From the sequence record NC_049815.1: a stretch of 51,012 nt of DNA; one strand, written 5' to 3'. The notes beneath the pieces were generated by a model that saw nothing but the letters and a program-made list of their open reading frames with translations, did no database searches and was not told the DNA's origin. The position numbers and the translations under genes are program-made. Within the stretch, counting starts at the first letter, position 1. Each line of letters starts with the position of its first letter. This DNA is from Escherichia phage tonn. Of this stretch, positions 2,769 to 49,574 are shown in pieces.

Positions 2769-2776
2769 ATATAACT

Positions 2777-2798
2777 TTTTAGCAATTAGTGCTATTTA
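2777..2798 (-). promoter_or_regulatory. variant copy of the 21-bp intergenic motif (AAATAGCACTAATTGCTAAAA), followed by TATAAT
   Basis: motif match; its TAG is the terL stop codon. Confidence 0.45.
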
Positions 2799-4909: not shown

Positions 4910-4935
4910 TGCCTGATTATACCAAACAACGGGCA
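4910..4935 (-). promoter_or_regulatory. sigma70-type extended -10 promoter (TGGTATAAT) for the packaging/head operon
   Basis: TGGTATAAT on - strand at 4924..4916, ~20 nt upstream of the terS RBS and just downstream of a terminator hairpin. Confidence 0.4.
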
Positions 4936-4936
4936 A

Positions 4937-4968
4937 TAAAAAACCCGCCGTGCGGCGGGTAATTTTTA
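4937..4968. terminator. rho-independent terminator hairpin ACCCGCCG-tg-CGGCGGGT flanked by A-run and T-run
   Basis: perfect 8-bp GC-rich stem with flanking A6/T5; separates early arm from terS. Confidence 0.55.
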
Positions 4969-6907: not shown

Positions 6908-6964
6908 TGCGCTTTCCTCTGTTTCGCTTCAATAAGGGCACTTTACCAAATGCCCTTGCGGAAG

Positions 6965-6986
6965 TTTTAACAAAAAGTGCTATTAA
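6965..6986 (-). promoter_or_regulatory. 21-bp intergenic motif copy
   Basis: TTTTAACAAAAAGTGCTATTA on + strand = motif on - strand; contains stop of upstream gene. Confidence 0.5.
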
Positions 6987-8269: not shown

Positions 8270-8280
8270 TGCGCCCCGCG

Positions 8281-8301
8281 TTTAGCAATTCGTGCTATTT
8301 A
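8281..8301 (-). promoter_or_regulatory. 21-bp intergenic motif copy (variant AAATAGCACGAATTGCTAAA) with TATAAT 22 bp downstream
   Basis: motif match; TAG inside motif is stop of kinase gene. Confidence 0.5.
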
Positions 8302-9542: not shown

Positions 9543-9600
9543 GATTTAATCCTCGTTTGTTGTTGATGGGCTTACTATACAGCAAGCCCGATGATCTGTT

Positions 9601-9621
9601 TTTTGCAAAAAGTGCTATTTA
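9601..9621 (-). promoter_or_regulatory. 21-bp intergenic motif copy (AAATAGCACTTTTTGCAAAA) with TATAGT downstream inside a hairpin loop
   Basis: motif match. Confidence 0.5.
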
Positions 9622-10995: not shown

Positions 10996-11049
10996 CGTTT
11001 TATCTCCTTCGTTGAAAGTAGGGCCATTATACCTGGCCCCACATTTGAG

Positions 11050-11071
11050 TTTTAACAATTCGTGCTATTTA
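11050..11071 (-). promoter_or_regulatory. 21-bp intergenic motif copy with TATAAT 21 bp downstream inside hairpin GGGGCC..GGCCC
   Basis: motif match; TAA of motif is stop of upstream gene. Confidence 0.5.
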
Positions 11072-11962
11072 CACTTTGACCTTCCACTTAACCATCGTTC
11101 CGCGCTTAATGCTGATCTCACCTGCAATCGTCCGGTTTTTATAGCCGCCGTAGTGAAGCAGAAGGATAACAACGTCATCATGAATCTCGATCGTCTTTGG
11201 TGTTGCCGTTACTTCATACCAGGTGCCGTCATCAAGCCGGACTCCTTTTAGAGTGGCTGCAACTGGCATATCTTCAATTGCGCCCTGCGTTACGATTTCT
11301 TGATTTGCAAATGCGCTCTTGTCAATGCGCCAGCCTCCAGGCGCTTTCATTTCGGCAGCCGCTTTGTGGATCTCATCGCCAATGATTTTTTGAATTGACG
11401 TCTTACCGCCGCCGAATGGAGTTTCTCCAAATAAGTGTTTTGTAATATCTTCCACGTAATACACTTTATCTTTTTCGTTGTGCGGATTGTATCTATTGTG
11501 ACCGTTGACAAAGAAATCAACTTTCAACTCTGATTTCGTACCATCGCTATAAACGCCATTGTCGCGCGATGTGAATCGAATCGTTGAATTACCAACCGTG
11601 TAGAACGTGATCGGATACTTGATATTGTCAACACTTAAGCACCACAGCTTTTTATAGTCGCATGTTTTCATCTCGACCATCGGAATCTCTGCGCGTTCCG
11701 GTGAGCGCACTGGCAACACCTGGCCTTTATATGGCTTGTAGTGGAAGCTGGTATATCCTGGCATTGCATAGCCATAGTCTTTAAGTGCGTTGTACTGCGT
11801 ATTGTGCGCATCAATAAAGTGTTCAATCTCCATGTCTGATGGGCTTAGTTTGTCGCTATTCATATCAACCTTATGGCATGTTTTTTCATCGGTAAAAATG
11901 TAATGACCAATGCCGCGAGATTCGAAGGTGATCGGGAATTTAATGTCAGCAAGTTTTAACAT
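11069..11962 (-). CDS. hypothetical protein (297 aa)
   Basis: long ORF with RBS GGAGAAAG; no recognisable motif. Confidence 0.55.
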   Translation of the reverse strand: MLKLADIKFPITFESRGIGHYIFTDEKTCHKVDMNSDKLSPSDMEIEHFIDAHNTQYNALKDYGYAMPGYTSFHYKPYKGQVLPVRSPERAEIPMVEMKTCDYKKLWCLSVDNIKYPITFYTVGNSTIRFTSRDNGVYSDGTKSELKVDFFVNGHNRYNPHNEKDKVYYVEDITKHLFGETPFGGGKTSIQKIIGDEIHKAAAEMKAPGGWRIDKSAFANQEIVTQGAIEDMPVAATLKGVRLDDGTWYEVTATPKTIEIHDDVVILLLHYGGYKNRTIAGEISIKRGTMVKWKVKV

Positions 11963-12041
11963 GGTGCTTTCTCCTGATTGGTTTTGTGGGCGACGCCGTG
12001 CCGCCCTATGTGATTTATTATGCCTGGTTATCGTTTTCGAG

Positions 12042-12063
12042 TTTTAACAAAAAGTGCTATTTA
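12042..12063 (-). promoter_or_regulatory. 21-bp intergenic motif copy with CATAAT 22 bp downstream
   Basis: motif match. Confidence 0.5.
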
Positions 12064-12246
12064 GAATTTGACCTCTTCCACAAGCTCAACCATCTTGTAA
12101 CCAAGACGATAAGAGTCACCGAACAACAAGATCCCCATAAATTCATCGTGGATTATTGACTCCTTGCCAACCGTTCTAAGCTCGCCGTTGTGAATCACAG
12201 TATCGCCGATCTTGATTTCTGACTTATGGACTAGTTTCGTTTTCAT
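12061..12246 (-). CDS. hypothetical protein
   Basis: 61 aa ORF. Confidence 0.45.
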   Translation of the reverse strand: MKTKLVHKSEIKIGDTVIHNGELRTVGKESIIHDEFMGILLFGDSYRLGYKMVELVEEVKF

Positions 12247-12261
12247 CTATTCACCTGCTAA

Positions 12262-12447
12262 TTAAAAGAACGCTACATAGTTTGCAATGCCTTTGGCGTC
12301 ATCGTTTGGCATTGCTTTTACAGCCAGGTCATAACCTGCCTCTACCTTCTGCTTTGCTGTTTCTTCGTTGTAGCCCCAGATAACCAGGATTTTAACTACG
12401 TTTTCTTTGTTCAGGACTTTAAGGTCTTTGGTGATGCGACGTGCCAT
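12262..12447 (-). CDS. hypothetical protein
   Basis: 61 aa ORF. Confidence 0.45.
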   Translation of the reverse strand: MARRITKDLKVLNKENVVKILVIWGYNEETAKQKVEAGYDLAVKAMPNDDAKGIANYVAFF

Positions 12448-12504
12448 TTTTGTTTCCTCAATCTCGTTTCGATGAGGCTATTATGCCAGGCTTTGCGCCT
12501 GGCG

Positions 12505-12526
12505 TTTTAACAAAAAGTGCTATTTT
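12505..12526 (-). promoter_or_regulatory. 21-bp intergenic motif copy with hairpin CCAGGC-n5-GCCTGG and CATAAT
   Basis: motif match; leader contains CATCGAAACGA. Confidence 0.5.
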
Positions 12527-12792
12527 GTCTCTACGGTCATATGTTCTGTCTTCGTGCCTTTGCCATTGCTTTTCGACACTTCCCAGCTAGTCGTGCCCTT
12601 ACAGTTGGTGAAGTAAACAGTGCGATCGTCATAGAATCGGTAAACGGTGCAACCGTCAGCGGTGAATAGCTCCCTTACGCTGTAGTCATCGCCAGGGTTA
12701 GCCATCTGCACATTGCCAACATGCGCGCCATCTTCTTTGCATCCGGTCAGGAATGCCATTGCCGCCAAAACGCTGATTAATGCCTTTTTCAT
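12520..12792 (-). CDS. lipoprotein (signal peptide with lipobox LTGC)
   Basis: MKKALISVLAAMAFLTGC N-terminus; ATGA overlap with upstream gene; second gene of the consensus-promoter operon. Confidence 0.55.
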   Translation of the reverse strand: MKKALISVLAAMAFLTGCKEDGAHVGNVQMANPGDDYSVRELFTADGCTVYRFYDDRTVYFTNCKGTTSWEVSKSNGKGTKTEHMTVETK

Positions 12793-13250
12793 TGCTCTTC
12801 CTCTTTGATGATTTCGCGGATCATATCCTGGTAGCGGCTTACGCCCTCGCAAGCCCCAGCCAGTTTATCCCCTTCCAGGTCAACGATATTCGGGATTGCT
12901 GCCAGTAAGCGATCGGCAAACTTTTTGATCGCCCTTGCCTTGATTGCTGGCAATTCTTCGGGTGTGATGATTTTCCTTTTCGATTCGCGCACCATGCGGA
13001 AAACGTAAAATTTATCATCTTCCGTTTCCTCTACCTTGATGCTTACCCGACCTGCGGCCCTTACTTCTGGAACGCGGTTGATAATGGTCCGGCTGTAGGA
13101 TGAACTGCGCGTGATCTTGTAGCAGTCGTCACCGCTTAACATTCCGGCCAGGTCAATTAGTGACATTTTATACTCTTCAATATCGCCACTAGCCAGGCGG
13201 CGACCAAGCTCGCGAAGCCAATCGCAATAGTCCTTAGTGGTCTTCTGTTC
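12789..13250 (-). CDS. hypothetical immediate-early protein
   Basis: ATG at 13250 with GGAGGAAAGGAA RBS, just downstream of consensus promoter. Confidence 0.5.
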   Translation of the reverse strand, partial: EQKTTKDYCDWLRELGRRLASGDIEEYKMSLIDLAGMLSGDDCYKITRSSSYSRTIINRVPEVRAAGRVSIKVEETEDDKFYVFRMVRESKRKIITPEELPAIKARAIKKFADRLLAAIPNIVDLEGDKLAGACEGVSRYQDMIREIIKEEEQ

Positions 13251-13284
13251 CATTTCCTTTCCTCCAGTTGTTGACTGTTGGCGC

Positions 13285-13312
13285 ATTATAAAAGCTATTT
13301 GGTGCGTGTCAA
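13285..13312 (-). promoter_or_regulatory. consensus sigma70 promoter TTGACA-16-TATAAT (leftward early promoter)
   Basis: perfect -35 (13312..13307) and -10 (13290..13285) hexamers on - strand with 16-bp spacer. Confidence 0.6.
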
Positions 13313-13419
13313 TGTTTTTGTTGTATTCAAAACGTTACCAATATCGAAAAACTACAAAATCATGCGCAAGTTATTGATTTCAGGGCTGTTATTTTTCTGT
13401 TCACGCTGTTAACGCAATC

Positions 13420-13630
13420 CGCCGGAAAAAGTATATATACATATGCAATCCGCCGCGCGCGCAACTATCCATATATACCCACACACAACCACACCATAAC
13501 CAACAAAAAGCACTGTAACAGTGAGAACAAAAAGAAAACATTATAGATATATATAAATAAATAATCTTTATTTTCAATGTATTATAAAGGATTTTTTTTG
13601 TTTTTTCCGTTTTCGATACACCGGAAAACC
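13420..13630. repeat. AT-rich noncoding element, copy A (homologous to 34036..34280)
   Basis: shared ordered blocks CGCCGGA..TATATACATA, CACAAACAACCAAAACCACAA-like CA-rich run, ATAAATAAATAA, TCGATA(A)CACCGGAAAAC. Confidence 0.55.
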
Positions 13631-13748
13631 GCGCGGAAACACGCCGCCTGAAATCGGTAACAGGGGTGAACAAAAGACAACAACCGCTGACAGCCAGGCG
13701 GAAAAGTGAGGCAAGAGGGGAAGGTTTCACTATCTCCCCTGCAACCAA

Positions 13749-13840
13749 TGATTAAACGTGATTACTTTTCTCATCAAATTTGCAAAGGCAATCATCATTT
13801 TGACGAGATTTGATTACGAATGATTACTTTTGATTATTTC
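13749..13840. repeat. iteron-like direct repeats of TGATTAC(TTTT) (5 copies)
   Basis: TGATTA at 13749, 13759, 13811, 13821, 13831. Confidence 0.5.
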
Positions 13841-13865
13841 GATCGCAATCCTGGCGATAACCGTC

Positions 13866-13886
13866 AAATAGCACTTTTTGTTAAAA
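13866..13886 (+). promoter_or_regulatory. 21-bp intergenic motif copy (rightward) with TACATT 22 bp downstream
   Basis: exact AAATAGCACTTTTTGTTAAAA; leader CATCGAAACGAAC at 13917..13929. Confidence 0.5.
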
Positions 13887-13946
13887 CCCAGGCCGCCTGA
13901 TCGGGTACATTACACACATCGAAACGAACCGCTCAGGAGATAGTAA

Positions 13947-14219
13947 ATGAACATCAGCAAAACCACTTTCAATTTCGCTAAGCGTCACGGTCTGGATCTG
14001 ACTGTTGAAGATTTTGGCGATGTTCTGCAACTCTGCATATGGGAAGCAGATAACGATTGCGAGTGGCTTTGCTCTTATCGCATTAACTACGATTGCTTGA
14101 CCTGGCACTGCAATATCTATCTGCCGCAAGAAGTGAAAGAAGAATTGCCAGCGACTATCAACAACGAAGTTTTCTTGCGCCAGGTGCTGAAATTTATCAG
14201 TAAGGAGATCAAGAAGTAA
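13947..14219 (+). CDS. hypothetical protein (Cys-rich)
   Basis: 90 aa; GGAGATAG RBS. Confidence 0.5.
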   Translation: MNISKTTFNFAKRHGLDLTVEDFGDVLQLCIWEADNDCEWLCSYRINYDCLTWHCNIYLPQEVKEELPATINNEVFLRQVLKFISKEIKK

Positions 14220-14485
14220 TGGCGGTGATTACCGAAAATGATTTGGATCTGGCGGAGGCGTTTTGCAGGGCCGCCAGGGCTAACCTGGATGTGACCACTA
14301 AATTTCTTCCGGCGCGACCACTCTTTTCGTGTGCGCCCGTGAATAAACCGACTCGCGTAATGATCGTGATTGAAGGTGATGGCCTGTACGCTGAAAAGAC
14401 GTTCCACATCAGCAACATTAAGGGCCGTGCTGATTTTATCAATGATGTTTGCTTATTGCAGGAGAAGAAAAAATGTTGGATGTGA
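14219..14485 (+). CDS. hypothetical protein
   Basis: 88 aa; TAATG coupling with upstream gene. Confidence 0.5.
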   Translation: MAVITENDLDLAEAFCRAARANLDVTTKFLPARPLFSCAPVNKPTRVMIVIEGDGLYAEKTFHISNIKGRADFINDVCLLQEKKKCWM

Positions 14486-14682
14486 TCAAGAAAGCACATG
14501 AGATGGGTATGGATGTTTCAATCTGCGACGCTTCCGCGCGTCACCCGTCAGCGCCTGAAAATATGGTTGTTGTCATCGTGCATAATCACCGCTATGAGTG
14601 CCGTGCGATGTTTGAGAAGCAGGATAAAGAGTATCAACGCTGTTTTATCAACGAAGTTTGCGATCTGTATGGGAGGATCTGA
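14473..14682 (+). CDS. hypothetical protein
   Basis: start set to ATG 14473 (AGGAGAAG RBS). Confidence 0.45.
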   Translation: MLDVIKKAHEMGMDVSICDASARHPSAPENMVVVIVHNHRYECRAMFEKQDKEYQRCFINEVCDLYGRI

Positions 14683-14683
14683 A

Positions 14684-14896
14684 ATGTTCAAGAAATTGTT
14701 ATGGCTGTACCGCTCCAGGCGCAATAAGGGATATTGCATGGGCACGGAAAGGAATCTTGACCGCGCTTATAAATACTGCCTGTTGTTGCTCGCCAGTCTG
14801 CCGGAAAACAGGAAGGAATATATTGCACTGCGAGAAATAACAATGCGGATATATAGTTACCGCAATAAACTATACGTCTTTAAATCTTTACGATAA
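14684..14896 (+). CDS. small basic protein
   Basis: ATG 14684 with GGGAGGA RBS; 70 aa. Confidence 0.4.
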   Translation: MFKKLLWLYRSRRNKGYCMGTERNLDRAYKYCLLLLASLPENRKEYIALREITMRIYSYRNKLYVFKSLR

Positions 14897-14908
14897 GGAG
14901 TAATAACC

Positions 14909-15172
14909 ATGAAAATTAATGCACCTATTCCAGTTAAGCGCAAAGCACGTTTGCTCAATAACGGGTGTTACGCCCTGCGGCCTGCATTTAAGGATCGCAC
15001 ATTTCCGGTTATCGTTAACGTGTCTCACGTAAGCCGTAGCGGAAATCTGGTATTCGTTAAAGGTGAAGATCTGGCGGCGCTTGGATTCTATGGCGGTGTT
15101 CACGGCGAACCGCTCGGATTCTGGCTTGTGGATCCGTTAACTGGAGAGCGTGAAATCGAATTCCTGGACTAA
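14909..15172 (+). CDS. hypothetical protein
   Basis: 87 aa, TAAGGAG RBS; stop TAA is first triplet of motif copy. Confidence 0.5.
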   Translation: MKINAPIPVKRKARLLNNGCYALRPAFKDRTFPVIVNVSHVSRSGNLVFVKGEDLAALGFYGGVHGEPLGFWLVDPLTGEREIEFLD

Positions 15173-15191
15173 ATAGCACTTTTTGTTAAAA
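15171..15191 (+). promoter_or_regulatory. 21-bp intergenic motif copy with TATAGT 22 bp downstream in hairpin loop
   Basis: exact motif. Confidence 0.5.
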
Positions 15192-15247
15192 ACGATGCGC
15201 TGCTGATTGGTATAGTAAGCGCATCGACAACAAACGAGGATTTAAAG

Positions 15248-15445
15248 ATGGAAAATCAGGTTGATGTTAAAGTTGTTAAGCGCGACAAGTCTCACGAAAA
15301 AGGTTTGTTTAAGAAAGGTGCTGAAATCACCATTGACCTTGATGATATGGAGGCGTACCACTCAGGGCTAACTTGGAATGTGCGCAAATGTGAAAACGGC
15401 CTGTTCAAGTTAAATGGCTTTGAAACATACATGGAGATCATCTAA
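15248..15445 (+). CDS. small protein (possible paralog family member)
   Basis: 65 aa. Confidence 0.5.
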   Translation: MENQVDVKVVKRDKSHEKGLFKKGAEITIDLDDMEAYHSGLTWNVRKCENGLFKLNGFETYMEII

Positions 15446-15657
15446 TGGCAAAGCAATTAAAAATTAAATGCGTAGAAACTTATGACTCAACTTGGAGATT
15501 TACGCGCGGAAAAGAATACCCGCTAATGGGAAATCTCAAAGAAGATCCTCATGTAATTTCAGATAATGGCCTTCACCTTTATTTAATGGAATACAACGAT
15601 GGATATATTGGTGCTGGTGTTCCAGGTCATAAATTTAAGATGAAAAATAAGAAATGA
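15445..15657 (+). CDS. small protein (possible paralog family member)
   Basis: 70 aa; pattern FTRGKEY...NG..LYL similar to 10532..10777. Confidence 0.5.
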   Translation: MAKQLKIKCVETYDSTWRFTRGKEYPLMGNLKEDPHVISDNGLHLYLMEYNDGYIGAGVPGHKFKMKNKK

Positions 15658-15765
15658 GGCTATTTATTTTCAAAAATGCCTGGATGGTAGCGGTTGCAAA
15701 TGACCATTACGGCGGCGACGGAAAAAGAGCACGACGCCATTCATATTTCAATTGAGGATATTTAA

Positions 15766-15993
15766 ATGAAAGCAAAAGTTTTAAACATTATGGCAACTAT
15801 TGACGCTCATCACCGCGTGGCTGTAAAACTTGATAAGTCTTGCGGAATTAGCCAAATCACTATCACCGAGGGCAAAGGCGGCTATCTTATTGGTATCCAT
15901 CCAGGCGGTAAGGTGCGCAAATACAATAAAGATCAGTTAAAAGAATTACTGGAAGAAAACGCTTTCTATATTCAAAGTTGGCGTGCTCTTTAA
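15766..15993 (+). CDS. hypothetical protein
   Basis: 75 aa; followed by hairpin GGCGGC-gtttt-GCCGCC. Confidence 0.5.
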   Translation: MKAKVLNIMATIDAHHRVAVKLDKSCGISQITITEGKGGYLIGIHPGGKVRKYNKDQLKELLEENAFYIQSWRAL

Positions 15994-16034
15994 TTAATAT
16001 GGCGGCGTTTTGCCGCCTTTTAAATGAGGTGGAA

Positions 16035-16151
16035 ATGATAGATAAGGCTATTGATTTCTTTTTTTATTCGATTATTGGCGCGGTTGGCTTTTTGGTTACT
16101 GCTGCTGGCCTGGCTATTATCTTGGCTGTTATTAAGGGGATTATGCGATGA
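16035..16151 (+). CDS. small hydrophobic peptide (38 aa, one TM helix)
   Basis: manual translation MIDKAIDFFFYSIIGAVGFLVTAAGLAIILAVIKGIMR; GAGGTGG RBS; ATGA overlap with next gene. Confidence 0.3.
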   Translation: MIDKAIDFFFYSIIGAVGFLVTAAGLAIILAVIKGIMR

Positions 16152-16372
16152 GTCAAGACGGATTTTTTGAGCGCCTTCAAATGGCAGAAGATGCCGGACT
16201 AAATAAAGAGGCGGCGCTTGAAGTGGCATATAAAATTAAGCCTCTTGATGAGGCTTTAGGTGATATGGATATGGATCTTGAATCAAGCGCAATATTTGCA
16301 GATCCCACTATGATTGTTAATGATTGTGGATGCGATTTCGATCCTGGTTGTCCGCGCTGTTTTCCGTTTTGA
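16148..16372 (+). CDS. small acidic Cys-rich protein
   Basis: 74 aa; C-terminal CGCDFDPGCPRCF cluster. Confidence 0.5.
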   Translation: MSQDGFFERLQMAEDAGLNKEAALEVAYKIKPLDEALGDMDMDLESSAIFADPTMIVNDCGCDFDPGCPRCFPF

Positions 16373-16383
16373 GGTAATGACGA

Positions 16384-17093
16384 TGTATAAAGGTTTAATA
16401 TTCTCCCTATTTGATGGATCTGGTAAAGCAGTTAAAGATTGGGCTGATAATGGATATAAGTGCATTTGCTTTAATGCTGACGGCGGCGATCACGGTGATT
16501 ACCAGTCAGTGCGCATACAGCATGAGAATATCGAATACGTTAACGTCTGGATTGATGATGCTTTTTATGTTAAGGCAATCAATAATGAGTTGGGCAATCC
16601 TGATTTTATTATGGCGTTCCATCCTTGCACCGACCTTGCAAATAGCGGATCTCGCCATTGGGCCAAAAAACGCCTTGAGAATCCATCGTTCCAGGATGAG
16701 GCCGCCGACACTTGCAGAATCGCGGCTGATATAGCTGATTATTTCGGTGTTCCTTACATGATCGAAAATCCGGTTGGCAAGTTGTCAACGTTATGGCGTA
16801 AGCCTGATTATACGTTCCATCCGTGCGATTACGCTGGCTATCTGCCGGAAGATGATAAACATCCCGACTTCCCTGATATTATTCCGGCGCGTGATCGCTA
16901 TTTTAAGAAAACGTGCCTCTGGACTGGCAACGGCTTTGTTATTCCTCCACGCGCTTTAATCCTGCCGAAAGAGGAAGACAAAGATAATCCAGGCTGGGCC
17001 AAAACTGGAGGCAAGTCATCGCGCACAAAGATGATCCGCTCCCTCACTCCGCGCGGATTTGCTCGCGCCGTCTTTGAGTCAAACTCAAAATAG
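16384..17093 (+). CDS. DNA cytosine-5 methyltransferase-fold protein, atypical and without a normal target recognition domain
   Basis: 236 aa from ATG 16384 (GAGG RBS); FSLFDGSG (motif I-like), HPC-T at residues 80-83 (motif IV-like), ENPVG (motif VI-like), PARDRYF (motif VIII-like) at M.HhaI-like spacing. Confidence 0.55.
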
Positions 17094-17108
17094 CACTTTT
17101 TGTTAAAA
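17088..17108 (+). promoter_or_regulatory. 21-bp intergenic motif copy with hairpin GCCAGGT-n6-ACCTGGC then CATAAT
   Basis: exact motif; TAG in motif is stop of methyltransferase-fold gene. Confidence 0.5.
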
Positions 17109-17162
17109 GCCAGGTGTAAAAACCTGGCATAATCACATCGAACAAACAAAGGAGATCTGATC

Positions 17163-17549: not shown

Positions 17550-17767
17550 TAAACAGTGAAAACCGTTACAAAGTAACGCATTCTACCACAAAGACTTTCA
17601 AGCCTGGCGATATAGTCAGGCCCATCAAAAAAACGGCGGTAGGTTGGCTGATTGGTTTTTCATATCATAAGGCGCTTTACTTTACGTTTAAGGATGGGAT
17701 TACAGGAGAATGCTACAGCGACCGCCAGCCTGATCGACTTCTGGTTGCAATAGAGCGGATCAAATAG
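17546..17767 (+). CDS. hypothetical protein
   Basis: 73 aa; ATGA-type overlap upstream. Confidence 0.5.
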   Translation: MINSENRYKVTHSTTKTFKPGDIVRPIKKTAVGWLIGFSYHKALYFTFKDGITGECYSDRQPDRLLVAIERIK

Positions 17768-17782
17768 CACTTTTTGACAAAA
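17762..17782 (+). promoter_or_regulatory. 21-bp intergenic motif copy (TTGACA variant) with TAAAAT in hairpin loop
   Basis: AAATAGCACTTTTTGACAAAA. Confidence 0.5.
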
Positions 17783-17835
17783 CGGGGTAGTATTGGGCCG
17801 TTAAAATTTACGGCCCACAAAGGAGAAGCTAACGA

Positions 17836-19808: not shown

Positions 19809-19929
19809 TGATTTTATTCATGCTTTACTTACGCTACTTTATTCAGATATGCGAGCTTTTAGCACCACTGAACACGTTTTATGCAATGATGATGGTGTGT
19901 TATTGGTTACAGTAAAGCGTATGGAATAG
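19735..19929 (+). CDS. hypothetical small protein (overlaps 19413..19808 out of frame; start uncertain)
   Basis: ends with the TAG inside a motif copy. Confidence 0.3.
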   Translation: MMNCSRQKLIDKILKHCAVNSISHDDFIHALLTLLYSDMRAFSTTEHVLCNDDGVLLVTVKRME

Positions 19930-19944
19930 CATTTTTTGTTAAAA
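19924..19944 (+). promoter_or_regulatory. 21-bp intergenic motif copy with hairpin CCCGAC-n6-GTCGGG then TATATT
   Basis: GAATAGCATTTTTTGTTAAAA; leader CATCGAAACGAAC at 19975..19987. Confidence 0.5.
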
Positions 19945-20006
19945 CTCCCGACCTTGTGTCGGGTATATTTGTTTCATCGAAACGAACCAACCAAAAAGGA
20001 AAAATT

Positions 20007-21489: not shown

Positions 21490-22605
21490 TCAATTCATCA
21501 TTTCTGGATAGTGAACAAATCGCCCCACCTCTCCATGCTCTTTGTCGTAAATGATAACCGCCGCACGGCGTCGAGATCGCCAGCCACCGCGCGCGGCGTA
21601 TGCGTCTTTTGCCGCCAGGGTGCTATGCACCTCAACGATGCCAAGCGACGTTTCTGTCACGGTCTGGTGATGCCAGTGCCCTACGTGCGCATACATCGTT
21701 TTTGAGTTTCCGAAGTCCTCCCGCCAATCTGACGCGCACATCATTAGCAAAGCCTCCGGTTTACGCACTGTGTGCCCGTGATGGTACGCAAGGAAAGTTT
21801 TTCCGTATTGCGTGTGGTGCACAACGCGAGGGGAAACATCAACGTAAACGCGCGGCTCGTTTTCATATGCTGCCGCCATTGCTGCGCGTAGCCAAATCAT
21901 TCCTGATTGGTCATGATTGCCCTCTACGATCTGGACTTCAACATGTTTATGCTTTAACAACATTTTATTGATTGCGCGTCGCATTGCACGGATGGCAACG
22001 TAAACCAATTTTGCATATCGACTATCTTGATCCAGTACGTGACCGCTTGCAGGTGTAACCGCCTCCAGGCCGTCGCTATGCAGCATATCGCCACCAATCA
22101 GGATGACAGCCTTTTCGCTATCCGGTGCGCACATTAAAGCATAGTCGATAAAGTTATTCATAACGCGCTCTGCCGTGGCAGTATCCCAATTTTCGCCGCA
22201 TTCGTGCTTATGGGCCATAGCGCCTAAGTGCATGTCAAAGATCGGATACAAGGAAAGCGTTTCGTTATAGTCGCGCTCCTGTAATGGAACCGGATCTAAT
22301 CGCGGCACTTCCTCGCTAAATGCCTCCATTGCTGCGCGCATTAATGCTTCTAATTGCTCTTTATCCTTGCTGGTTTTAGTCCACTTTAGGATTATGTTGC
22401 CTTCTTTGTCAGTCATTACTGACTCACCATGAACGCCAAAACCAGGCGCTCCAATGGTGGATACCTGGCCTTGCTTTGCAAGTCGCGCCGCGCGACGCTC
22501 GACGCTTCTCACATTCATTCCGTACTCTTGAGCGATCTGTTTATATGTCTTACCCGCCGCCCGTTCGATCTTGAATTGCTCATCTGTAATTTTTACATTT
22601 TTCAT
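21490..22605 (-). CDS. calcineurin-like metallophosphoesterase (Mre11/SbcD-like) with N-terminal HTH
   Basis: start at ATG 22605 (MKNVKITDEQ); DMHLG, GDMLHSDG and GNHD motifs. Confidence 0.6.
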   Translation of the reverse strand: MKNVKITDEQFKIERAAGKTYKQIAQEYGMNVRSVERRAARLAKQGQVSTIGAPGFGVHGESVMTDKEGNIILKWTKTSKDKEQLEALMRAAMEAFSEEVPRLDPVPLQERDYNETLSLYPIFDMHLGAMAHKHECGENWDTATAERVMNNFIDYALMCAPDSEKAVILIGGDMLHSDGLEAVTPASGHVLDQDSRYAKLVYVAIRAMRRAINKMLLKHKHVEVQIVEGNHDQSGMIWLRAAMAAAYENEPRVYVDVSPRVVHHTQYGKTFLAYHHGHTVRKPEALLMMCASDWREDFGNSKTMYAHVGHWHHQTVTETSLGIVEVHSTLAAKDAYAARGGWRSRRRAAVIIYDKEHGEVGRFVHYPEMMN

Positions 22606-22699
22606 TCTGCTACCTATCTCATCACTATATGGTACATAACTGTAACAGCGATGATAACTGGTAACGGTAGAACAAACAAGCGCCACATGATAACTATCC

Positions 22700-22963
22700 T
22701 CATTTATAATATTTGCGAGGCTCTCGGATTTTAGCCATTGCCTCTTTGAAATCAATTTTTGTTGGAACTGCTGGAACTCTTACCATTTTTCGCGGCCTTT
22801 CCTTGAGGAAAGTCATCTTATCACCGCTAATTATGCTCACATCTGCAATATCAAAGTATTGCGCGATCTTCTTTATATCGTCTGCTATTCCGCATTCTTT
22901 AGCGTGATTCCATACCGCCTCTCTACCTTGTTCAACCTTCATGCTTATAATATGCCTCCGCAA
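22700..22963 (-). CDS. hypothetical protein
   Basis: 87 aa. Confidence 0.45.
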   Translation of the reverse strand: MRRHIISMKVEQGREAVWNHAKECGIADDIKKIAQYFDIADVSIISGDKMTFLKERPRKMVRVPAVPTKIDFKEAMAKIREPRKYYK

Positions 22964-23117: not shown

Positions 23118-23168
23118 TTCCTCACGTTCGTTTCGATGAAATAATTATGCCCGACAAAATGCCGGGCG

Positions 23169-23189
23169 TTTTAACAAAAAGTGCTATTA
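23169..23189 (-). promoter_or_regulatory. 21-bp intergenic motif copy with hairpin and CATAAT; leader CATCGAAACGAAC
   Basis: motif match. Confidence 0.5.
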
Positions 23190-24174: not shown

Positions 24175-24239
24175 TTTCATTTCTCCGCTATTAAAAGCCA
24201 TCTCGTGTTATTGAATTATGGCGCAATCCATCGCGCCAG

Positions 24240-24261
24240 TTTTAACAAAAAGTGCTATTTA
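24240..24261 (-). promoter_or_regulatory. 21-bp intergenic motif copy with hairpin GGCGCG..GCGCC and CATAAT
   Basis: motif match. Confidence 0.5.
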
Positions 24262-26671: not shown

Positions 26672-26738
26672 CTTAAACCTTTAAAAAATGCCATTTGGAG
26701 TATATAATAGACTCATTACAATAAACTGTTTTAACAAA

Positions 26739-26758
26739 AAATGCTATGAGGTGACTAG
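26739..26758 (-). promoter_or_regulatory. 21-bp intergenic motif copy (variant) with TATTAT 22 bp downstream; promoter candidate for helicase operon
   Basis: CATAGCATTTTTTGTTAAAA on - strand. Confidence 0.45.
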
Positions 26759-27235
26759 ATGAAAGATGCACGAATTGCAGTTTCTACGGGTGAGATCGAC
26801 AAGCGCACTATTAACGGTAACAACGGAACGCGACGAGGTAAAGACAAAAAGCCACGAAAACACCGAACCGGATTTCTTATCCTGCGAGATGAGGTAAAAG
26901 CAAGCCTGAAATCTCGCCTGGATATTCTGATCGAGTATTATGGCGGTGTTCCTGCTATGGCTCGACGTCTACGCGTATCTCAGCAAGTCGTTAACCAATG
27001 GCGAAAGCGTGGTATGATTTCAGCCGCTGGAGCACAAAAGGTGCATAACGACTACAAATATAATGGATGCAAAGGATACCGCGCATCATTTTGTCGTCCA
27101 GATCTGCGGTTTGATTCTAACGGTAAGCCTCTTACTACCCGTTGCGACAAATACGAGATGTTGCGCGTAGTCAAAAATTCAGACTACGAACCAGGCGGAC
27201 GATTCTACAAAGGTGATAACAGCACAAATAGCTAA
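26759..27235 (+). CDS. Cro/YdaS-like HTH DNA-binding protein (putative regulator)
   Basis: HTH-like segment GGVPAMARRLRVSQQVVNQWRKRG. Confidence 0.5.
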   Translation: MKDARIAVSTGEIDKRTINGNNGTRRGKDKKPRKHRTGFLILRDEVKASLKSRLDILIEYYGGVPAMARRLRVSQQVVNQWRKRGMISAAGAQKVHNDYKYNGCKGYRASFCRPDLRFDSNGKPLTTRCDKYEMLRVVKNSDYEPGGRFYKGDNSTNS

Positions 27236-33860: not shown

Positions 33861-34035
33861 CTTTAATGCTCCTTGTTGCTTTATGCGTGCATTGTAGCCA
33901 TTTGGTTGATTTAGTCAATAGCTGTTTTGTTTTTTTCTGTTTTCTAAACGTTCTCAGATGGCAAGAAAACAGATTTGACTCATAAGTTAATGATTAATAT
34001 GTGTTATTTTTCTTGTTCCCCTGTTCTCTCAGATA

Positions 34036-34286: not shown

Positions 34287-34306
34287 AAATAGCACTTTTT
34301 GCTAAA
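34287..34306 (+). promoter_or_regulatory. 21-bp intergenic motif copy (AAATAGCACTTTTTGCTAAA) with TATAGT 21 bp downstream
   Basis: motif match. Confidence 0.5.
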
Positions 34307-34362
34307 CGCGATGCCCAAGATCGTGTATAGTTGCATCCAACAACAACTAAGGAGTATTGAAG

Positions 34363-39132: not shown

Positions 39133-39424
39133 GACTTTTAACCTTTTGTGCTGTTTCTTGGTTTGCACATTATAAATGCACAAAAAAACCAGCGCAATGC
39201 TGGTTAAATCTACTTTCCGTGGTTTATGTGGAATTTGTTTAAAACTTCAATCTCTATCATCTTTTCTGCCGCTTCCTGCCTCACTTCCTTTCTTTATCCT
39301 TCTTCCTACGTCTACAGCCCAAAATAACTTACCGTCATTATAATAAAAAATATCACGCCACATGATCACATCCTTAATTAATTGTAAAGCGAAAATCCGT
39401 TTTCGCTTTAACATATTGTGCTAT

Positions 39425-45277: not shown

Positions 45278-45298
45278 TTATAGCACTTTTTGTTAAAA
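45278..45298 (+). promoter_or_regulatory. 21-bp motif copy in antisense orientation within the tail module
   Basis: TTATAGCACTTTTTGTTAAAA on + strand while flanking genes are on - strand. Confidence 0.35.
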
Positions 45299-45337
45299 GT
45301 GGAATTAATTTATTTGATAGATTGATTTTACAGGAAT

Positions 45338-45366
45338 GAAAAAAGGGGCGCAACGCCCCTTGTTTT
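45338..45366. terminator. rho-independent terminator immediately after major tail protein gene
   Basis: GGGGCG-caa-CGCCCC flanked by A7 and TTGTTTT. Confidence 0.6.
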
Positions 45367-46027
45367 ACTTAACGTCGGAAGGTAAGAACGTGAATCGGCC
45401 TTTCAGAGATACAGAAAGGGAAACAGTTTCCATTTCGTTCATAGTTGTTTGCGGAATGTCATTAAAAGACAATACGCCAGCCCAGCAACGCATCTCTTTA
45501 GCTTTCGGCACGTACATACGCAAAGCGGTTACGTCGCCGGATTCCTCAGCCTCGCGCAAGATCGGATAAATCGGATTATCATATTCATGCGCGAAAGTAT
45601 AGGTAAGAGAAACGGCGCTCTTGTAGGTCGGCAACTGCTGTTCCTGGTCATCAGCCAAACACTGATAAGTGTAATACTGTTGCTCGCCGCCGTCCTGCGC
45701 AAGATCCTGTACGCAAGGAACCTCTACCCAAGATTTCACCTCTCGGAAAGTTGCTGTATTAGAACCAGCCGGAAATACGTTTTGATCGATTGTGTCTACA
45801 CCTTCAAGAGTTACGCTTGCGTTATCAGATACTTCTTTTACCCGCAACACACGACTAACCAGTTTACCCCAGGAAGACGTTTCAATCAGAACATAAGCAC
45901 CTTTTTTGATCTGCTGTGAATTACTAACAGTAAAAACCGGATCTTTAGCGTTTGAAATATCAGTAGCGCTAATTGGCTCACCCATATTAACGCCGATGAA
46001 AATTTGAGAACCATTAGGCAAGTGCAT
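45365..46027 (-). CDS. major tail protein
   Basis: 220 aa; upstream of G/GT chaperone and followed by terminator, the usual arrangement for the abundant tail tube protein. Confidence 0.65.
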   Translation of the reverse strand: MHLPNGSQIFIGVNMGEPISATDISNAKDPVFTVSNSQQIKKGAYVLIETSSWGKLVSRVLRVKEVSDNASVTLEGVDTIDQNVFPAGSNTATFREVKSWVEVPCVQDLAQDGGEQQYYTYQCLADDQEQQLPTYKSAVSLTYTFAHEYDNPIYPILREAEESGDVTALRMYVPKAKEMRCWAGVLSFNDIPQTTMNEMETVSLSVSLKGRFTFLPSDVK

Positions 46028-49536: not shown

Positions 49537-49555
49537 GATAGCATTTTTTGTTAAA
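49537..49555 (+). promoter_or_regulatory. degenerate 21-bp motif copy in antisense orientation upstream of major capsid gene
   Basis: GATAGCATTTTTTGTTAAA on + strand. Confidence 0.3.
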
Positions 49556-49574
49556 CGTGCAACATAATTTTGTG

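What the first reader, a model, noticed from the sequence alone, without database searches (positions are those of the whole stretch)
13285..13312. Single perfect-consensus sigma70 promoter likely defines the immediate-early unit
TTGACA-16-TATAAT on the - strand is the only perfect consensus promoter noticed. It drives a two-gene unit (153-aa protein plus lipoprotein) before the first motif cassette, whereas nearly all downstream genes on both arms carry the 21-bp motif instead. This suggests a temporal cascade in which an immediate-early product enables the motif promoters. The late packaging operon has its own extended -10 (TGGTATAAT, 4916..4924) right after a terminator.
Basis: partly seen in the sequence, partly recalled or inferred. 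Interest (0 to 1): 0.4.

Follow-up and report, generated by a model that had tools for sequence, protein, structure and literature searches.

The report
Consensus early promoter beside marbox-type promoters
The perfect host-type promoter is real and conserved at the start of a T1-like phage's early genes, and the repeated 21-base motif in front of the other early genes is a perfect copy of the binding site for the bacterial stress regulators MarA, SoxS and Rob, which points to the phage borrowing a host activator, not making its own.

Summary
The window is a T1-like coliphage (Warwickvirus, Drexlerviridae; 99% identical to phage tinuso). TTGACA-16-TATAAT at 13312..13285 (-) is present, is the only 12/12 site in the window (0.02 expected), and sits before an SD and a DUF7174 gene translationally coupled to a lipoprotein gene. 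A TTGACA-type promoter lies at the same place in 10 of 12 other Drexlerviridae examined, including T1 and TLS (its published P01). The hexamers are kept while the spacer diverges, so it is very probably a functional, activator-independent early promoter.

The "21-bp motif" is the known Drexlerviridae repeat, whose function a 2024 paper lists as an open question. All 19 copies here match the E. coli marbox (gcannwwntgnnaaa) exactly. They point forward, and 15 of 19 lie 18 nt from a YAnnnT -10 hexamer. This is the same geometry as the class II MarA/SoxS/Rob promoter of micF.

No MarA-like protein is encoded by the phage, and DUF7174 is not AraC-like. The motif promoters are more likely served by host Rob/MarA/SoxS than by an immediate-early phage product. 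The "two-gene unit" has no terminator. All of this is sequence inference with no expression data.

The parts
13313..13320 (-). A-tract (caaaaaca) directly upstream of the -35, resembling a proximal UP-element subsite
   Evidence: Sequence. An A-rich run precedes TTGACA in most homologous promoters aligned.
13307..13312 (-). -35 hexamer TTGACA of the consensus promoter
   Evidence: TTGACA is kept in 9 of 12 other Drexlerviridae at the same position (TLS has TTGACG, ESP2949-1 TTTACA, Henu7-type phages TTGTGG).
13285..13290 (-). -10 hexamer TATAAT, 16-nt spacer
   Evidence: MatMar and Jahat also score 12/12 although their spacers differ at 5-10 of 16 positions.
13278..13278 (-). Predicted transcription start (A, 7 nt after the -10)
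   Evidence: Inference from hexamer position. Not measured.
13261..13265 (-). Shine-Dalgarno GGAGG for the first gene
12789..13253 (-). Gene for a 154-aa DUF7174 protein, first gene of the leftward early arm
   Evidence: Pfam PF23796, E 3e-51. Homologues are first or second gene of the same arm in TLS (gp01), T1 (ST77, distant) and other genera. The model has pLDDT 83 and weak winged-helix-like similarity only.
12520..12792 (-). Gene for a 90-aa lipoprotein (DUF4884), start overlaps the upstream stop (ATGA), stop TAG lies inside the first motif
   Evidence: Lipobox LTGC read from the sequence.
12504..12523 (-). First marbox-type motif of the left arm (ATAGCACTTTTTGTTAAAAC). Its -10 CATAAT is at 12485..12480 and the predicted start at A12473.
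12041..12060 (-). Marbox cassette (18-nt gap, CATAAT)
11049..11068 (-). Marbox cassette (17-nt gap, TATAAT)
9599..9618 (-). Marbox cassette (19-nt gap, TATAGT)
8279..8298 (-). Marbox cassette (ATAGCACGAATTGCTAAACG, 18-nt gap, TATAAT)
6964..6983 (-). Marbox cassette (18-nt gap, TAAAGT)
13868..13887 (+). First marbox cassette of the rightward early arm (18-nt gap, TACATT). No sigma70-consensus promoter precedes this arm.
15173..15192 (+). Marbox cassette (18-nt gap, TATAGT)
17090..17109 (+). Marbox cassette (18-nt gap, CATAAT)
17764..17783 (+). Marbox cassette before the helicase gene (18-nt gap, TAAAAT)
19926..19945 (+). Marbox cassette (18-nt gap, TATATT)
23168..23187 (-). Marbox cassette in the middle region (18-nt gap, CATAAT)
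24239..24258 (-). Marbox cassette before the Dam methylase operon (18-nt gap, CATAAT)
26728..26747 (-). Marbox cassette before the 665-aa helicase gene (18-nt gap, TATTAT). It lies in the leader of the divergent Cro-like HTH gene.
34289..34308 (+). Marbox cassette (17-nt gap, TATAGT)
39405..39424 (-). Marbox cassette in the tail region (18-nt gap, TACAAT)
45280..45299 (+). Marbox cassette antisense to the late operon (18-nt gap, TAGATT), pointing into a bidirectional terminator
   Evidence: Homologous copy in T1 at 18850(-).
49538..49557 (+). Marbox copy antisense to the late operon, just upstream of the capsid gene SD, with no good -10 in register
   Evidence: Homologous to T1 15086(-) and TLS DR7.
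2776..2795 (-). Marbox copy overlapping the large-terminase stop codon and followed by a terminator. No -10 in register.
4916..4924 (-). Extended -10 TGGTATAAT before the small-terminase gene, with no -35
4943..4960 (-). Intrinsic terminator closing the leftward early arm
13313..13867 (.). 555-bp AT-rich non-coding divergent region between the two early arms
   Evidence: In T1 the homologous region is the left end of the record and the start of the annotated terminal repeat.

Best explanation
13312..13285(-) is a genuine, activator-independent sigma70 promoter: A-tract, perfect -35, 16-nt spacer, perfect -10. Host RNA polymerase can use it the moment the DNA enters. It starts leftward early transcription with the DUF7174 gene and a coupled lipoprotein gene. 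With no terminator in the way, it probably also reads into the rest of the left arm.

The other early and middle operons, on both arms, start from a second promoter type. This is a 20-bp marbox at -50..-31 in forward orientation, an 18-nt gap, a sigma70 -10 hexamer (often with G at -14), and a conserved start region CATCGAAACGA. That is the architecture of class II MarA/SoxS/Rob promoters such as E. coli micF. In those, the monomeric two-HTH activator sits at about -41, takes the place of the -35 contact, and touches sigma70 region 4 and alpha-CTD.

The phage encodes no such protein. The most likely activator is therefore a host one: Rob, MarA or SoxS in E. coli, and RamA as well in Klebsiella, Salmonella and Enterobacter.

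Shown: the sequence features, their statistics, their conservation, the identity of geometry with micF, and the absence of a phage MarA homologue. Inferred: that the sites are used as promoters, where transcription starts, and which protein binds.
For: Consensus promoter:
- It is the only 12/12 site, with 0.02 expected.
- SD and ATG are in register.
- A TTGACA-type promoter lies upstream of the DUF7174 homologue in 10 of the 12 other phages with no gene in between, 25-39 nt from the ATG in most and about 70 nt in T1 (window, MatMar and Jahat 12/12; KarlJaspers and PeterMerian 11/12; TLS, DanielBernoulli and PMBT35 10/12; T1 and aaroes TTGACA plus a TG-extended -10). The spacers differ between phages.
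- TLS P01, one of only three sigma70-like intergenic promoters reported for TLS, is this promoter.

Motif:
- 19 exact matches to the published marbox definition gcannwwntgnnaaa against 0.52 expected.
- In 80 unique copies from 16 sources, the variable columns (8-10, 14) are the degenerate marbox columns. W and Y preferences are obeyed. The gap is 18 nt in 67 of 80, and G is at -14 in 63 of 80.
- micF reads ACAGCACTGAATGTCAAAAC-18 nt-TAGAAT, which is 15/20 identical to the motif and has the same gap.
- Published structures put the micF site at about -41, describe it as CACT-7X-AAA, and show Rob contacting -47G and -45A and occluding the -35. The phage G and A fall on those positions.
- Class II means forward orientation overlapping the -35.

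No phage activator of this type:
- A profile built from MarA, SoxS and the Rob N-terminal domain finds nothing in the six frames of the window or of T1 (best E 0.075).
- No AraC HTH appears in the ~26 window proteins and 2 T1 proteins scanned with Pfam.

Constancy: the motif is the same in phages of Escherichia, Klebsiella, Salmonella and Cronobacter whose DUF7174 proteins are only 30-45% identical. This fits a slowly evolving host partner.
Against: - There are no expression data. No start site has been mapped for any Drexlerviridae, and I found no transcriptome.
- The marbox consensus is degenerate, and MarA-family activators give only 2-4-fold activation at micF-type promoters. That is modest for a phage's main promoters.
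- Rob is thought to be largely inactive without inducers, and MarA and SoxS are scarce in unstressed cells. Classical T1-resistant mutants map to fhuA and tonB, not to rob, marA or soxS (all my own knowledge).
- The repeat is more strongly conserved than host marboxes: ATA at positions 1-3, T at 11, AC at 19-20. This could mean a more specific binder, although ATAG also serves as the upstream stop codon.
- Most cassettes carry GC-rich inverted repeats that this model does not explain.
- A conserved phage Cro-like HTH protein exists.
- A 16-nt spacer is one short of the optimum.
Confidence: 0.55

Rival explanations
1. The consensus promoter makes an immediate-early phage protein (DUF7174 or a read-through product) that is itself the motif-binding activator, or is needed to switch the motif promoters on. 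It could do this by releasing or activating latent Rob, or by remodelling sigma70 region 4 in the manner of T4 AsiA/MotA, so that -35-independent promoters take over.
For: - Two promoter classes are real, and the right arm has no activator-independent promoter.
- DUF7174 is always first or second behind the conserved promoter.
- Motif promoters and the terminase promoter both lack a -35, whereas the first promoter has a perfect one. That is the pattern expected if a region-4 inhibitor is made early.
Against: - DUF7174 has no significant structural or sequence match to any transcription factor (Foldseek E >= 0.027, no AraC fold).
- DUF7174 proteins diverge to 30-45% identity while the motif stays the same.
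- The motif matches a host factor's site exactly, which makes a phage activator unnecessary.
- No terminator isolates an 'immediate-early unit'.
Confidence: 0.18
2. The motif is the operator of a phage-encoded HTH protein, the Cro/YdaS-like 158-aa protein at 26759..27235 (T1 gp23 'transcriptional regulator'). This protein would activate, or like a stoperator repress, transcription at each copy. The marbox match would be convergent or coincidental.
For: - The protein is conserved, 58% identical to the T1 protein with a similar recognition helix.
- The motif contains an imperfect palindrome, TAGCA-N5-TG(C/T)TA, centred near -42.
- A motif copy lies in the leader of this very gene.
- Antisense or out-of-register copies (49538, 2795; T1 8362) look more like binding sites than promoters.
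- The TLS authors proposed stoperator-like or enhancer roles.
Against: - The conservation pattern is asymmetric and follows the marbox columns, not a palindrome. The C of TGCTA varies freely (T 43, C 34, A 3), while AAA, AC and ATA, which lie outside the palindrome, are kept.
- The fixed 18-nt distance to a -10 and the forward orientation in 17 of 19 copies are the properties of a class II site.
Confidence: 0.12
3. The motif promoters need no activator. The T/A-rich motif acts as an UP-like element or weak -35 surrogate (TTAAAA at a 19-nt spacer), together with a good -10 and G at -14. All promoters then fire at once, and the consensus promoter is simply the strongest.
For: - -10 hexamers are near consensus and G-14 is frequent.
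- The TLS authors noted a resemblance to UP elements.
- T1-like phages grow well on unstressed laboratory strains (my own knowledge).
Against: - ATAGCAC is not an A/T tract, yet it is the best-conserved part.
- TTGTTA lies 22 nt from the -10, and TTAAAA lies 19 nt away.
- A 20-nt motif kept unchanged across subfamilies implies a sequence-specific reader.
- The match to the marbox, in both sequence and register, is unlikely by chance.
Confidence: 0.1
4. The consensus match at 13312..13285 is a chance occurrence in an AT-rich spacer and is not used.
For: The overall count of promoter-like sites in the window is no higher than in shuffles.
Against: - 0.02 expected for an exact match.
- Correct distance to the SD and ATG.
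- Both hexamers are conserved across genera while the spacer varies.
Confidence: 0.03

Closest known systems
Class II MarA/SoxS/Rob(/RamA)-dependent promoters of enterobacteria, e.g. micF
   Same: A 20-bp asymmetric marbox (GCAC ... AAA) in forward orientation overlapping the -35 position, 18 nt from a sigma70 -10 hexamer and centred at about -41. It is 15/20 identical to the micF box. The consensus gcannwwntgnnaaa is met by all 19 copies.
   Different: - It occurs in a virulent phage genome, in about 19-20 near-identical copies that drive most early and middle operons.
- It is much less degenerate than host marboxes.
- It forms part of a larger cassette: stop codon, marbox, GC-rich inverted repeat, -10, and a conserved 5' UTR.
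- Binding by the host factors is untested.
TLS promoter P01 and the 21-nt direct repeats DR1-DR18 of phage TLS (also noted for T1, Rtp and Rogue1; PMC11447400)
   Same: These are homologous features. P01 precedes the TLS DUF7174 homologue gp01, and the DR consensus aaATAGCACnnnTTGnTAAAA is the motif seen here.
   Different: The TLS paper leaves the function open, suggesting stoperator, enhancer or UP-like roles, and lists it as an unanswered question. It does not report the fixed 18-nt distance to a -10, the conserved start region or the marbox match. In this window the first promoter is a perfect consensus, whereas TLS has TTGACG-15-GATAAT.
T4 middle promoters (MotA box at -30 plus sigma70 -10; MotA/AsiA sigma appropriation). 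Recalled from my own knowledge.
   Same: The logic is the same: a normal -10, the -35 replaced by an activator site, and early sigma70 promoters that come first.
   Different: The MotA box sequence and position differ (9 bp centred at -30). No MotA or AsiA homologue was seen among the proteins scanned. Here the site matches a host activator.
Strong early sigma70 promoters at the leading end of virulent coliphages (T7 A1-A3, T5 pre-early and early promoters). My own knowledge.
   Same: A near-consensus host promoter that needs no phage factor and heads the first genes. In T1 the homologous promoter lies about 470 bp from the annotated genome end.
   Different: It is a single promoter. No first-step-transfer type of entry control is known for T1-like phages, and the entry polarity has not been established.
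PeSL (promoter-early stem-loop) mobile regulatory cassettes of T4-type phages. My own knowledge.
   Same: Repeated intergenic cassettes that combine a stem-loop and a promoter and flank small accessory genes. They are likely recombination points for module shuffling.
   Different: PeSLs carry ordinary early sigma70 promoters with a terminator-like stem-loop upstream. Here the stem-loop lies between the activator site and the -10, or around the -10.
Stoperators of mycobacteriophage L5 (cited by the TLS authors)
   Same: Many copies of an asymmetric site, oriented with transcription.
   Different: L5 sites are repressor sites inside transcription units of a temperate phage. The sites here sit at a fixed promoter register in a virulent phage.

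Membership tests
sigma70 (RpoD) consensus promoter | -35 TTGACA and -10 TATAAT separated by 17 +/- 1 nt | tested here: met
   12/12 with a 16-nt spacer at 13312..13285(-).
sigma70 (RpoD) consensus promoter | Placed upstream of a gene in the right orientation, and conserved in relatives | tested here: met
   SD and ATG lie 20-32 nt after the -10. A TTGACA-type promoter is at the same place in 10 of the 12 other Drexlerviridae compared directly.
sigma70 (RpoD) consensus promoter | Transcription starts there with host holoenzyme alone | not testable with these tools
   No start-site or transcriptome data for Drexlerviridae were found.
Class II MarA/SoxS/Rob (marbox) promoter | Asymmetric 20-bp marbox matching the consensus (gcannwwntgnnaaa; GCAC and AAA elements) | tested here: met
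   19 exact matches against 0.52 expected. The column-by-column profile of 80 copies follows the consensus. The consensus is taken from PMC12052159. The A site GCAC and B site CAAA come from PMC9178005.
Class II MarA/SoxS/Rob (marbox) promoter | Forward orientation, overlapping the -35 position, centred near -41 | tested here: met
   17 of 19 copies point with the downstream gene. The motif spans -50..-31 if the hexamer is -12..-7.
Class II MarA/SoxS/Rob (marbox) promoter | Fixed distance to a sigma70 -10 hexamer, as in a proven member | tested here: met
   micF has marbox, 18 nt, then TAGAAT. The phage cassettes have an 18-nt gap in 15 of 19 copies in the window and 67 of 80 overall, followed by YAnnnT.
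Class II MarA/SoxS/Rob (marbox) promoter | Bound and activated by MarA, SoxS or Rob | not testable with these tools
   This needs EMSA or footprinting, in vitro transcription, and infection of rob marA soxS mutants.
Phage-encoded AraC/XylS (MarA-like) activator | A protein with the two-HTH AraC-type DNA-binding domain encoded by the phage | tested here: not met
   A profile of MarA, SoxS and the Rob N-terminal domain against all six frames of the window and of T1 gives a best E of 0.075. Pfam finds no HTH_AraC or HTH_18 in the ~26 window proteins and 2 T1 proteins scanned. The DUF7174 model has no AraC fold.
T4-type middle promoter (MotA/AsiA) | MotA box (a/t)(a/t)(a/t)TGCTTtA centred at -30 (recalled from memory) | tested here: not met
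   The motif has a different sequence and spans -50..-31.
sigma54 promoter | GG at -24 and GC at -12 with invariant spacing (TGGCAC-N5-TTGC; recalled from memory) | tested here: not met
   The motif reads TAGCAC-N3-TTG(C/T), so GG is replaced by AG and the spacing is two nt short.
L5-type stoperator | Repressor-binding sites inside transcription units of a temperate phage, with no promoter register | tested here: not met
   The copies lie at a fixed register to a -10 hexamer and to a conserved start region. Three copies (49538, 2795, T1 8362) lack the register and could act as plain binding sites.

The most novel reading that the evidence does not exclude
T1-like phages run most of their early and middle transcription through about 20 near-perfect class II marboxes. 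They would thereby use the host's own stress regulators (Rob, MarA and SoxS; RamA in Klebsiella and Salmonella) as their general transcription activator, so phage development would be tied to the host's bile, envelope or oxidative stress state. The single -35-dependent consensus promoter would supply an immediate-early function that tips the cell towards -35-independent promoters (the marbox promoters and the extended -10 promoter), for example by activating latent Rob or blocking sigma70 region 4. This would answer the question the TLS authors explicitly left open about the 21-base repeats.
Probability: 0.4. Interest if true: 0.8.

Novelty: new variant of a known kind. Interest (0 to 1): 0.55.

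Why it matters
The consensus promoter on its own is ordinary: a strong host-type promoter at the head of a phage's early genes, homologous to TLS P01.

What matters is the contrast it exposes. The 21-base repeat of T1-like phages has been noted since the T1 and TLS genomes, and a 2024 paper lists its function as an unanswered question. Reading it as a class II marbox turns that question into simple experiments. It predicts that a classical coliphage family depends on, or is tuned by, the MarA/SoxS/Rob regulon, which also controls antibiotic tolerance.

If true, this would link phage susceptibility to antibiotic or bile stress and to mar/ram mutations common in clinical isolates. That is relevant to phage therapy and to T1 contamination control. 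It would also give a compact set of activator-dependent promoter cassettes for engineering.

Tried and rejected
- **sigma54 reading of the motif** (TAGCAC...TTGC): rejected. The spacing is two nt short and GG is replaced by AG.
- **TTGTTA as a -35:** rejected, because the spacer would be 22 nt.
- **Dimeric-operator reading** (TAGCA-N5-TGCTA): not favoured, because the conservation profile is asymmetric.
- **IHF, Fis, CRP and FNR consensus sequences,** compared by eye from memory: no fit.
- **Phage-encoded MarA-like protein:** none found.
- **Rfam on the whole window:** no family.
- **Literature:** no Drexlerviridae transcriptome or start-site map was found. A 2026 PNAS paper with RNA-seq concerns a T5-like phage only. 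No paper in the library links marboxes to phage repeats.
- **pac-site position in TLS:** it could not be tied to the promoter from the text, so the 'first DNA to enter' argument rests only on the T1 record's terminal-repeat annotation.
- **Searches left unused:** I judged that the large protein searches and the metagenome scans would not bear on the question.
Full report
**What the window is**

A megablast of 11000..16500 finds 162 phage records. The best is Escherichia phage tinuso at 99.1% over the full length. FritzSarasin (BASEL Bas04) is classified as Drexlerviridae, Tempevirinae, Warwickvirus. The window is therefore a whole, circularly permuted genome of a virulent T1-like coliphage.

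The gene layout is as follows:
- A 555-bp non-coding divergent region lies at 13313..13867.
- A leftward early arm runs on the - strand from 13253 down to 4966 and is closed by the terminator at 4960..4943.
- The packaging and structural operon follows on the same strand.
- A rightward early arm runs on the + strand from 13947 to about 20231.

**The observation**

TTGACA (13312..13307), 16 nt, TATAAT (13290..13285) is on the - strand as reported.
- It is the only 12/12 site in three scans that cover the window.
- An exact TTGACA-N15-19-TATAAT is expected 0.02 times in shuffles.
- It is preceded by an A-tract (caaaaaca).
- It is followed by a likely start at A13278, SD GGAGG (13265..13261), and ATG 13253.
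- The first ORF (154 aa) is Pfam DUF7174 (E 3e-51) and PHROG 4841, unknown function.
- The second ORF (90 aa) overlaps it by ATGA. It has a lipobox and matches DUF4884. Its TAG stop is part of the first motif copy.
- The extended -10 TGGTATAAT at 4924..4916 after the terminator is also there, with no usable -35.

**Is the promoter more than chance?**

I took the DUF7174 homologue as an anchor (231 phage records by tblastn) and fetched 14 loci from other genera, plus T1.

In 10 of the 12 where no extra gene intervenes, a TTGACA-type promoter lies upstream of the ATG, 25-39 nt away in most and about 70 nt in T1:

| Phage | -35 | spacer | -10 |
|---|---|---|---|
| MatMar, Jahat | TTGACA | 16 | TATAAT |
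| PeterMerian | TTGACA | 17 | GATAAT |
| KarlJaspers | TTGACA | 17 | AATAAT |
| DanielBernoulli, PMBT35 | TTGACA | 17 | TAACAT |
| TLS | TTGACG | 15 | GATAAT |
| aaroes, T1 | TTGACA | 17 | TG-extended weak -10 |

Henu7 and JohannLBurckhardt have only a weak TTGTGG-17-CATAAT there. Most have an A-rich run just upstream.

The spacer sequences differ at many positions between phages while the hexamers and spacing hold. The TLS site is that paper's P01, one of only three sigma70-like intergenic promoters its authors accepted. I conclude that the site is a functional, conserved, activator-independent promoter. The perfect 12/12 form is peculiar to part of Warwickvirus.

**The "unit"**

No terminator-like structure lies between 13285 and the first motif, nor, convincingly, anywhere on the - strand before 4960. 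The two-gene unit is therefore not insulated. Transcription from the consensus promoter can run on into the left arm. The right arm has no sigma70-like promoter at its head at all. It begins with a motif cassette at 13868.

**The motif**

A search with ATAGCACTTTTTGTTAAAAC, allowing up to 3 mismatches, gives 16 copies against 0 expected. A regular-expression scan brings the total to 19.

Each typical copy has the following parts:
- It follows or overlaps the stop codon of the upstream gene (TAA-ATAG, or the TAG inside ATAG).
- An 18-nt gap comes next.
- A hexamer of the form YAnnnT follows (CATAAT, TATAGT, TATAAT and others).
- Five nt later comes the conserved string CATCGAAACGA, whose A is where a start would be expected.
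- A CA-rich leader, an SD and an ATG complete the cassette.

With the hexamer at -12..-7 the motif spans -50..-31. TTGTTA is then 22 nt from the -10 and cannot be a -35.

This is the 21-nt direct repeat that the TLS re-annotation paper describes (aaATAGCACnnnTTGnTAAAA). That paper also notes it in T1, Rtp and Rogue1, and lists its function among the unanswered questions on T1-like phages.

**What the motif matches**

From memory it resembled the marbox of MarA/SoxS/Rob, so I checked the literature.
- PMC12052159 defines the marbox as 5'-gcannwwntgnnaaa-3'. It defines class II promoters as those with a forward marbox overlapping the -35.
- PMC9178005 describes the 20-bp site in micF, with an A site GCAC and a B site CAAA overlapping the -35. 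Rob contacts -47G and -45A and keeps sigma70 region 4 off the -35.
- PMC8811837 places the micF site at about -41 and writes it as CACT-7X-AAA.

The evidence in the sequences:
- All 19 window copies match gcannwwntgnnaaa exactly, against 0.52 expected.
- I read the micF promoter from E. coli K-12. It is ACAGCACTGAATGTCAAAAC, 18 nt, TAGAAT, then the annotated start. This is 15/20 identical to the phage motif with the same gap, so the phage G and A fall on the positions Rob contacts.
- T1 itself has about 20 copies with the same layout.
- In 80 unique copies from 16 sources, the columns that vary (8-10 and 14) are the degenerate columns of the consensus. W and Y preferences are kept. The gap is 18 nt in 67 of 80, and G occupies -14 in 63 of 80.

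The cassettes therefore have every sequence feature of class II MarA/SoxS/Rob promoters.

**Who binds?**

- A profile of MarA, SoxS and the Rob N-terminal domain, taken from the K-12 genome, finds nothing in any frame of the window or of T1 (best E 0.075).
- Pfam finds no AraC-type HTH in the ~26 window proteins and 2 T1 proteins scanned.
- The phage does encode a conserved Cro/YdaS-like HTH protein (26759..27235; T1 gp23; 58% identity). It remains a rival binder.

The motif is the same in phages of Escherichia, Klebsiella, Salmonella and Cronobacter whose DUF7174 proteins have drifted to 30-45% identity. This is what a conserved host partner would impose. I therefore favour host Rob/MarA/SoxS, and RamA where present, as the activator, at roughly even odds.

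The inference that an immediate-early product enables the motif promoters is not supported by anything in the sequence. A host activator would let the motif promoters fire at once, without phage protein synthesis.

A cascade is still possible. MarA-type activation is modest (2-4-fold). Rob is largely latent and MarA and SoxS are scarce in unstressed cells (my own knowledge). There is also a suggestive pattern: the first promoter depends on a perfect -35, while the motif promoters and the terminase promoter are -35-independent. That is the pattern expected if an early product disabled -35 recognition, as AsiA does in T4. This is speculation.

**Unexplained**

Most cassettes contain a GC-rich inverted repeat. 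In 26 of 36 window and T1 cassettes the fold is more than 2 SD more stable than shuffles. The repeat either fills the 18-nt gap or puts the -10 in its loop. The stems differ in sequence between copies. No U-tract follows them. The marbox model does not account for them.

Three copies are not in promoter register (49538, 2795; T1 8362). Two copies are antisense within the late operon and are conserved in T1 and TLS.

**Verdict**

The promoter is real but ordinary, and already on record for TLS. The cascade is only partly supported.

The more interesting result is that the repeat next to it is a class II marbox. I found no paper in the library that reports this. It makes a published open question directly testable. 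All functional statements are inferences from sequence.

Noticed in passing
window cassettes, e.g. 12502..12484, 17110..17128, 23166..23149, 6975..6950, 9607..9585; T1 (L016) 1450, 2269, 3535, 4344, 4864, 6531: GC-rich inverted repeats lie inside nearly every cassette. They either fill the gap between marbox and -10 or hold the -10 in the loop. Stem sequences differ between copies. 26 of 36 fold with z < -2. No U-tract follows, and the function is unknown.
   Followed up: partly
window 45280..45368 (+); T1 L016 18850..18770 (-): A marbox cassette antisense to the late operon (TAGATT at an 18-nt gap) points straight into a bidirectional terminator. It would give an RNA of about 40-50 nt. The sequence and arrangement are conserved between this phage and T1.
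   Followed up: partly
window 49538..49557 (+); T1 15086 (-); TLS DR7: A reverse-oriented marbox copy lies just upstream of the major capsid gene's SD, with no -10 in register. It is conserved in three genera and could be a plain binding site or roadblock within the late operon.
   Followed up: partly
window 26680..26760: Face-to-face overlapping promoters. A + strand TTTAAA-17-TATAAT for the Cro-like HTH gene shares its -10 with the - strand TATTAT of the helicase marbox cassette. The marbox lies in the transcribed leader of the HTH gene.
   Followed up: no
window 13291..13306 (spacer of the consensus promoter): The spacer contains AAATAGC, the first seven bases of the repeat. MatMar and PeterMerian have AAATAGCA there. 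It is not a full marbox, and it may be chance or a remnant.
   Followed up: no
window 13313..13867; T1 L016 1..520: The 555-bp AT-rich non-coding divergent region has CACAC-rich direct repeats (13477..13509). In T1 the homologous region carries three GATTAACAC repeats and is the start of the annotated 2.8-kb terminal repeat. It is a possible pac or origin region next to the promoter.
   Followed up: no
window 21490..22755 (-): A 371-421-aa protein in a marbox-driven operon has a weak, sub-threshold N-terminal hit to sigma70 region 4 and HTH models (E 0.002). It is a possible late regulator.
   Followed up: no
motif copies at 12523, 17090, 17764, 19926, 24258, 2795 and others: The ATAG at the start of the repeat, or a TAA just before it, serves as the stop codon of the upstream gene. 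Each cassette thus brings its own stop signal, as expected for a portable regulatory module.
   Followed up: partly
window 33918..33891 (-); T1 30319 (+); TLS P51: A second conserved sigma70-type promoter (TTGACT-16-TACAAT or TATAAT) precedes the RecE-like exonuclease / Erf recombination module in all three phages.
   Followed up: partly
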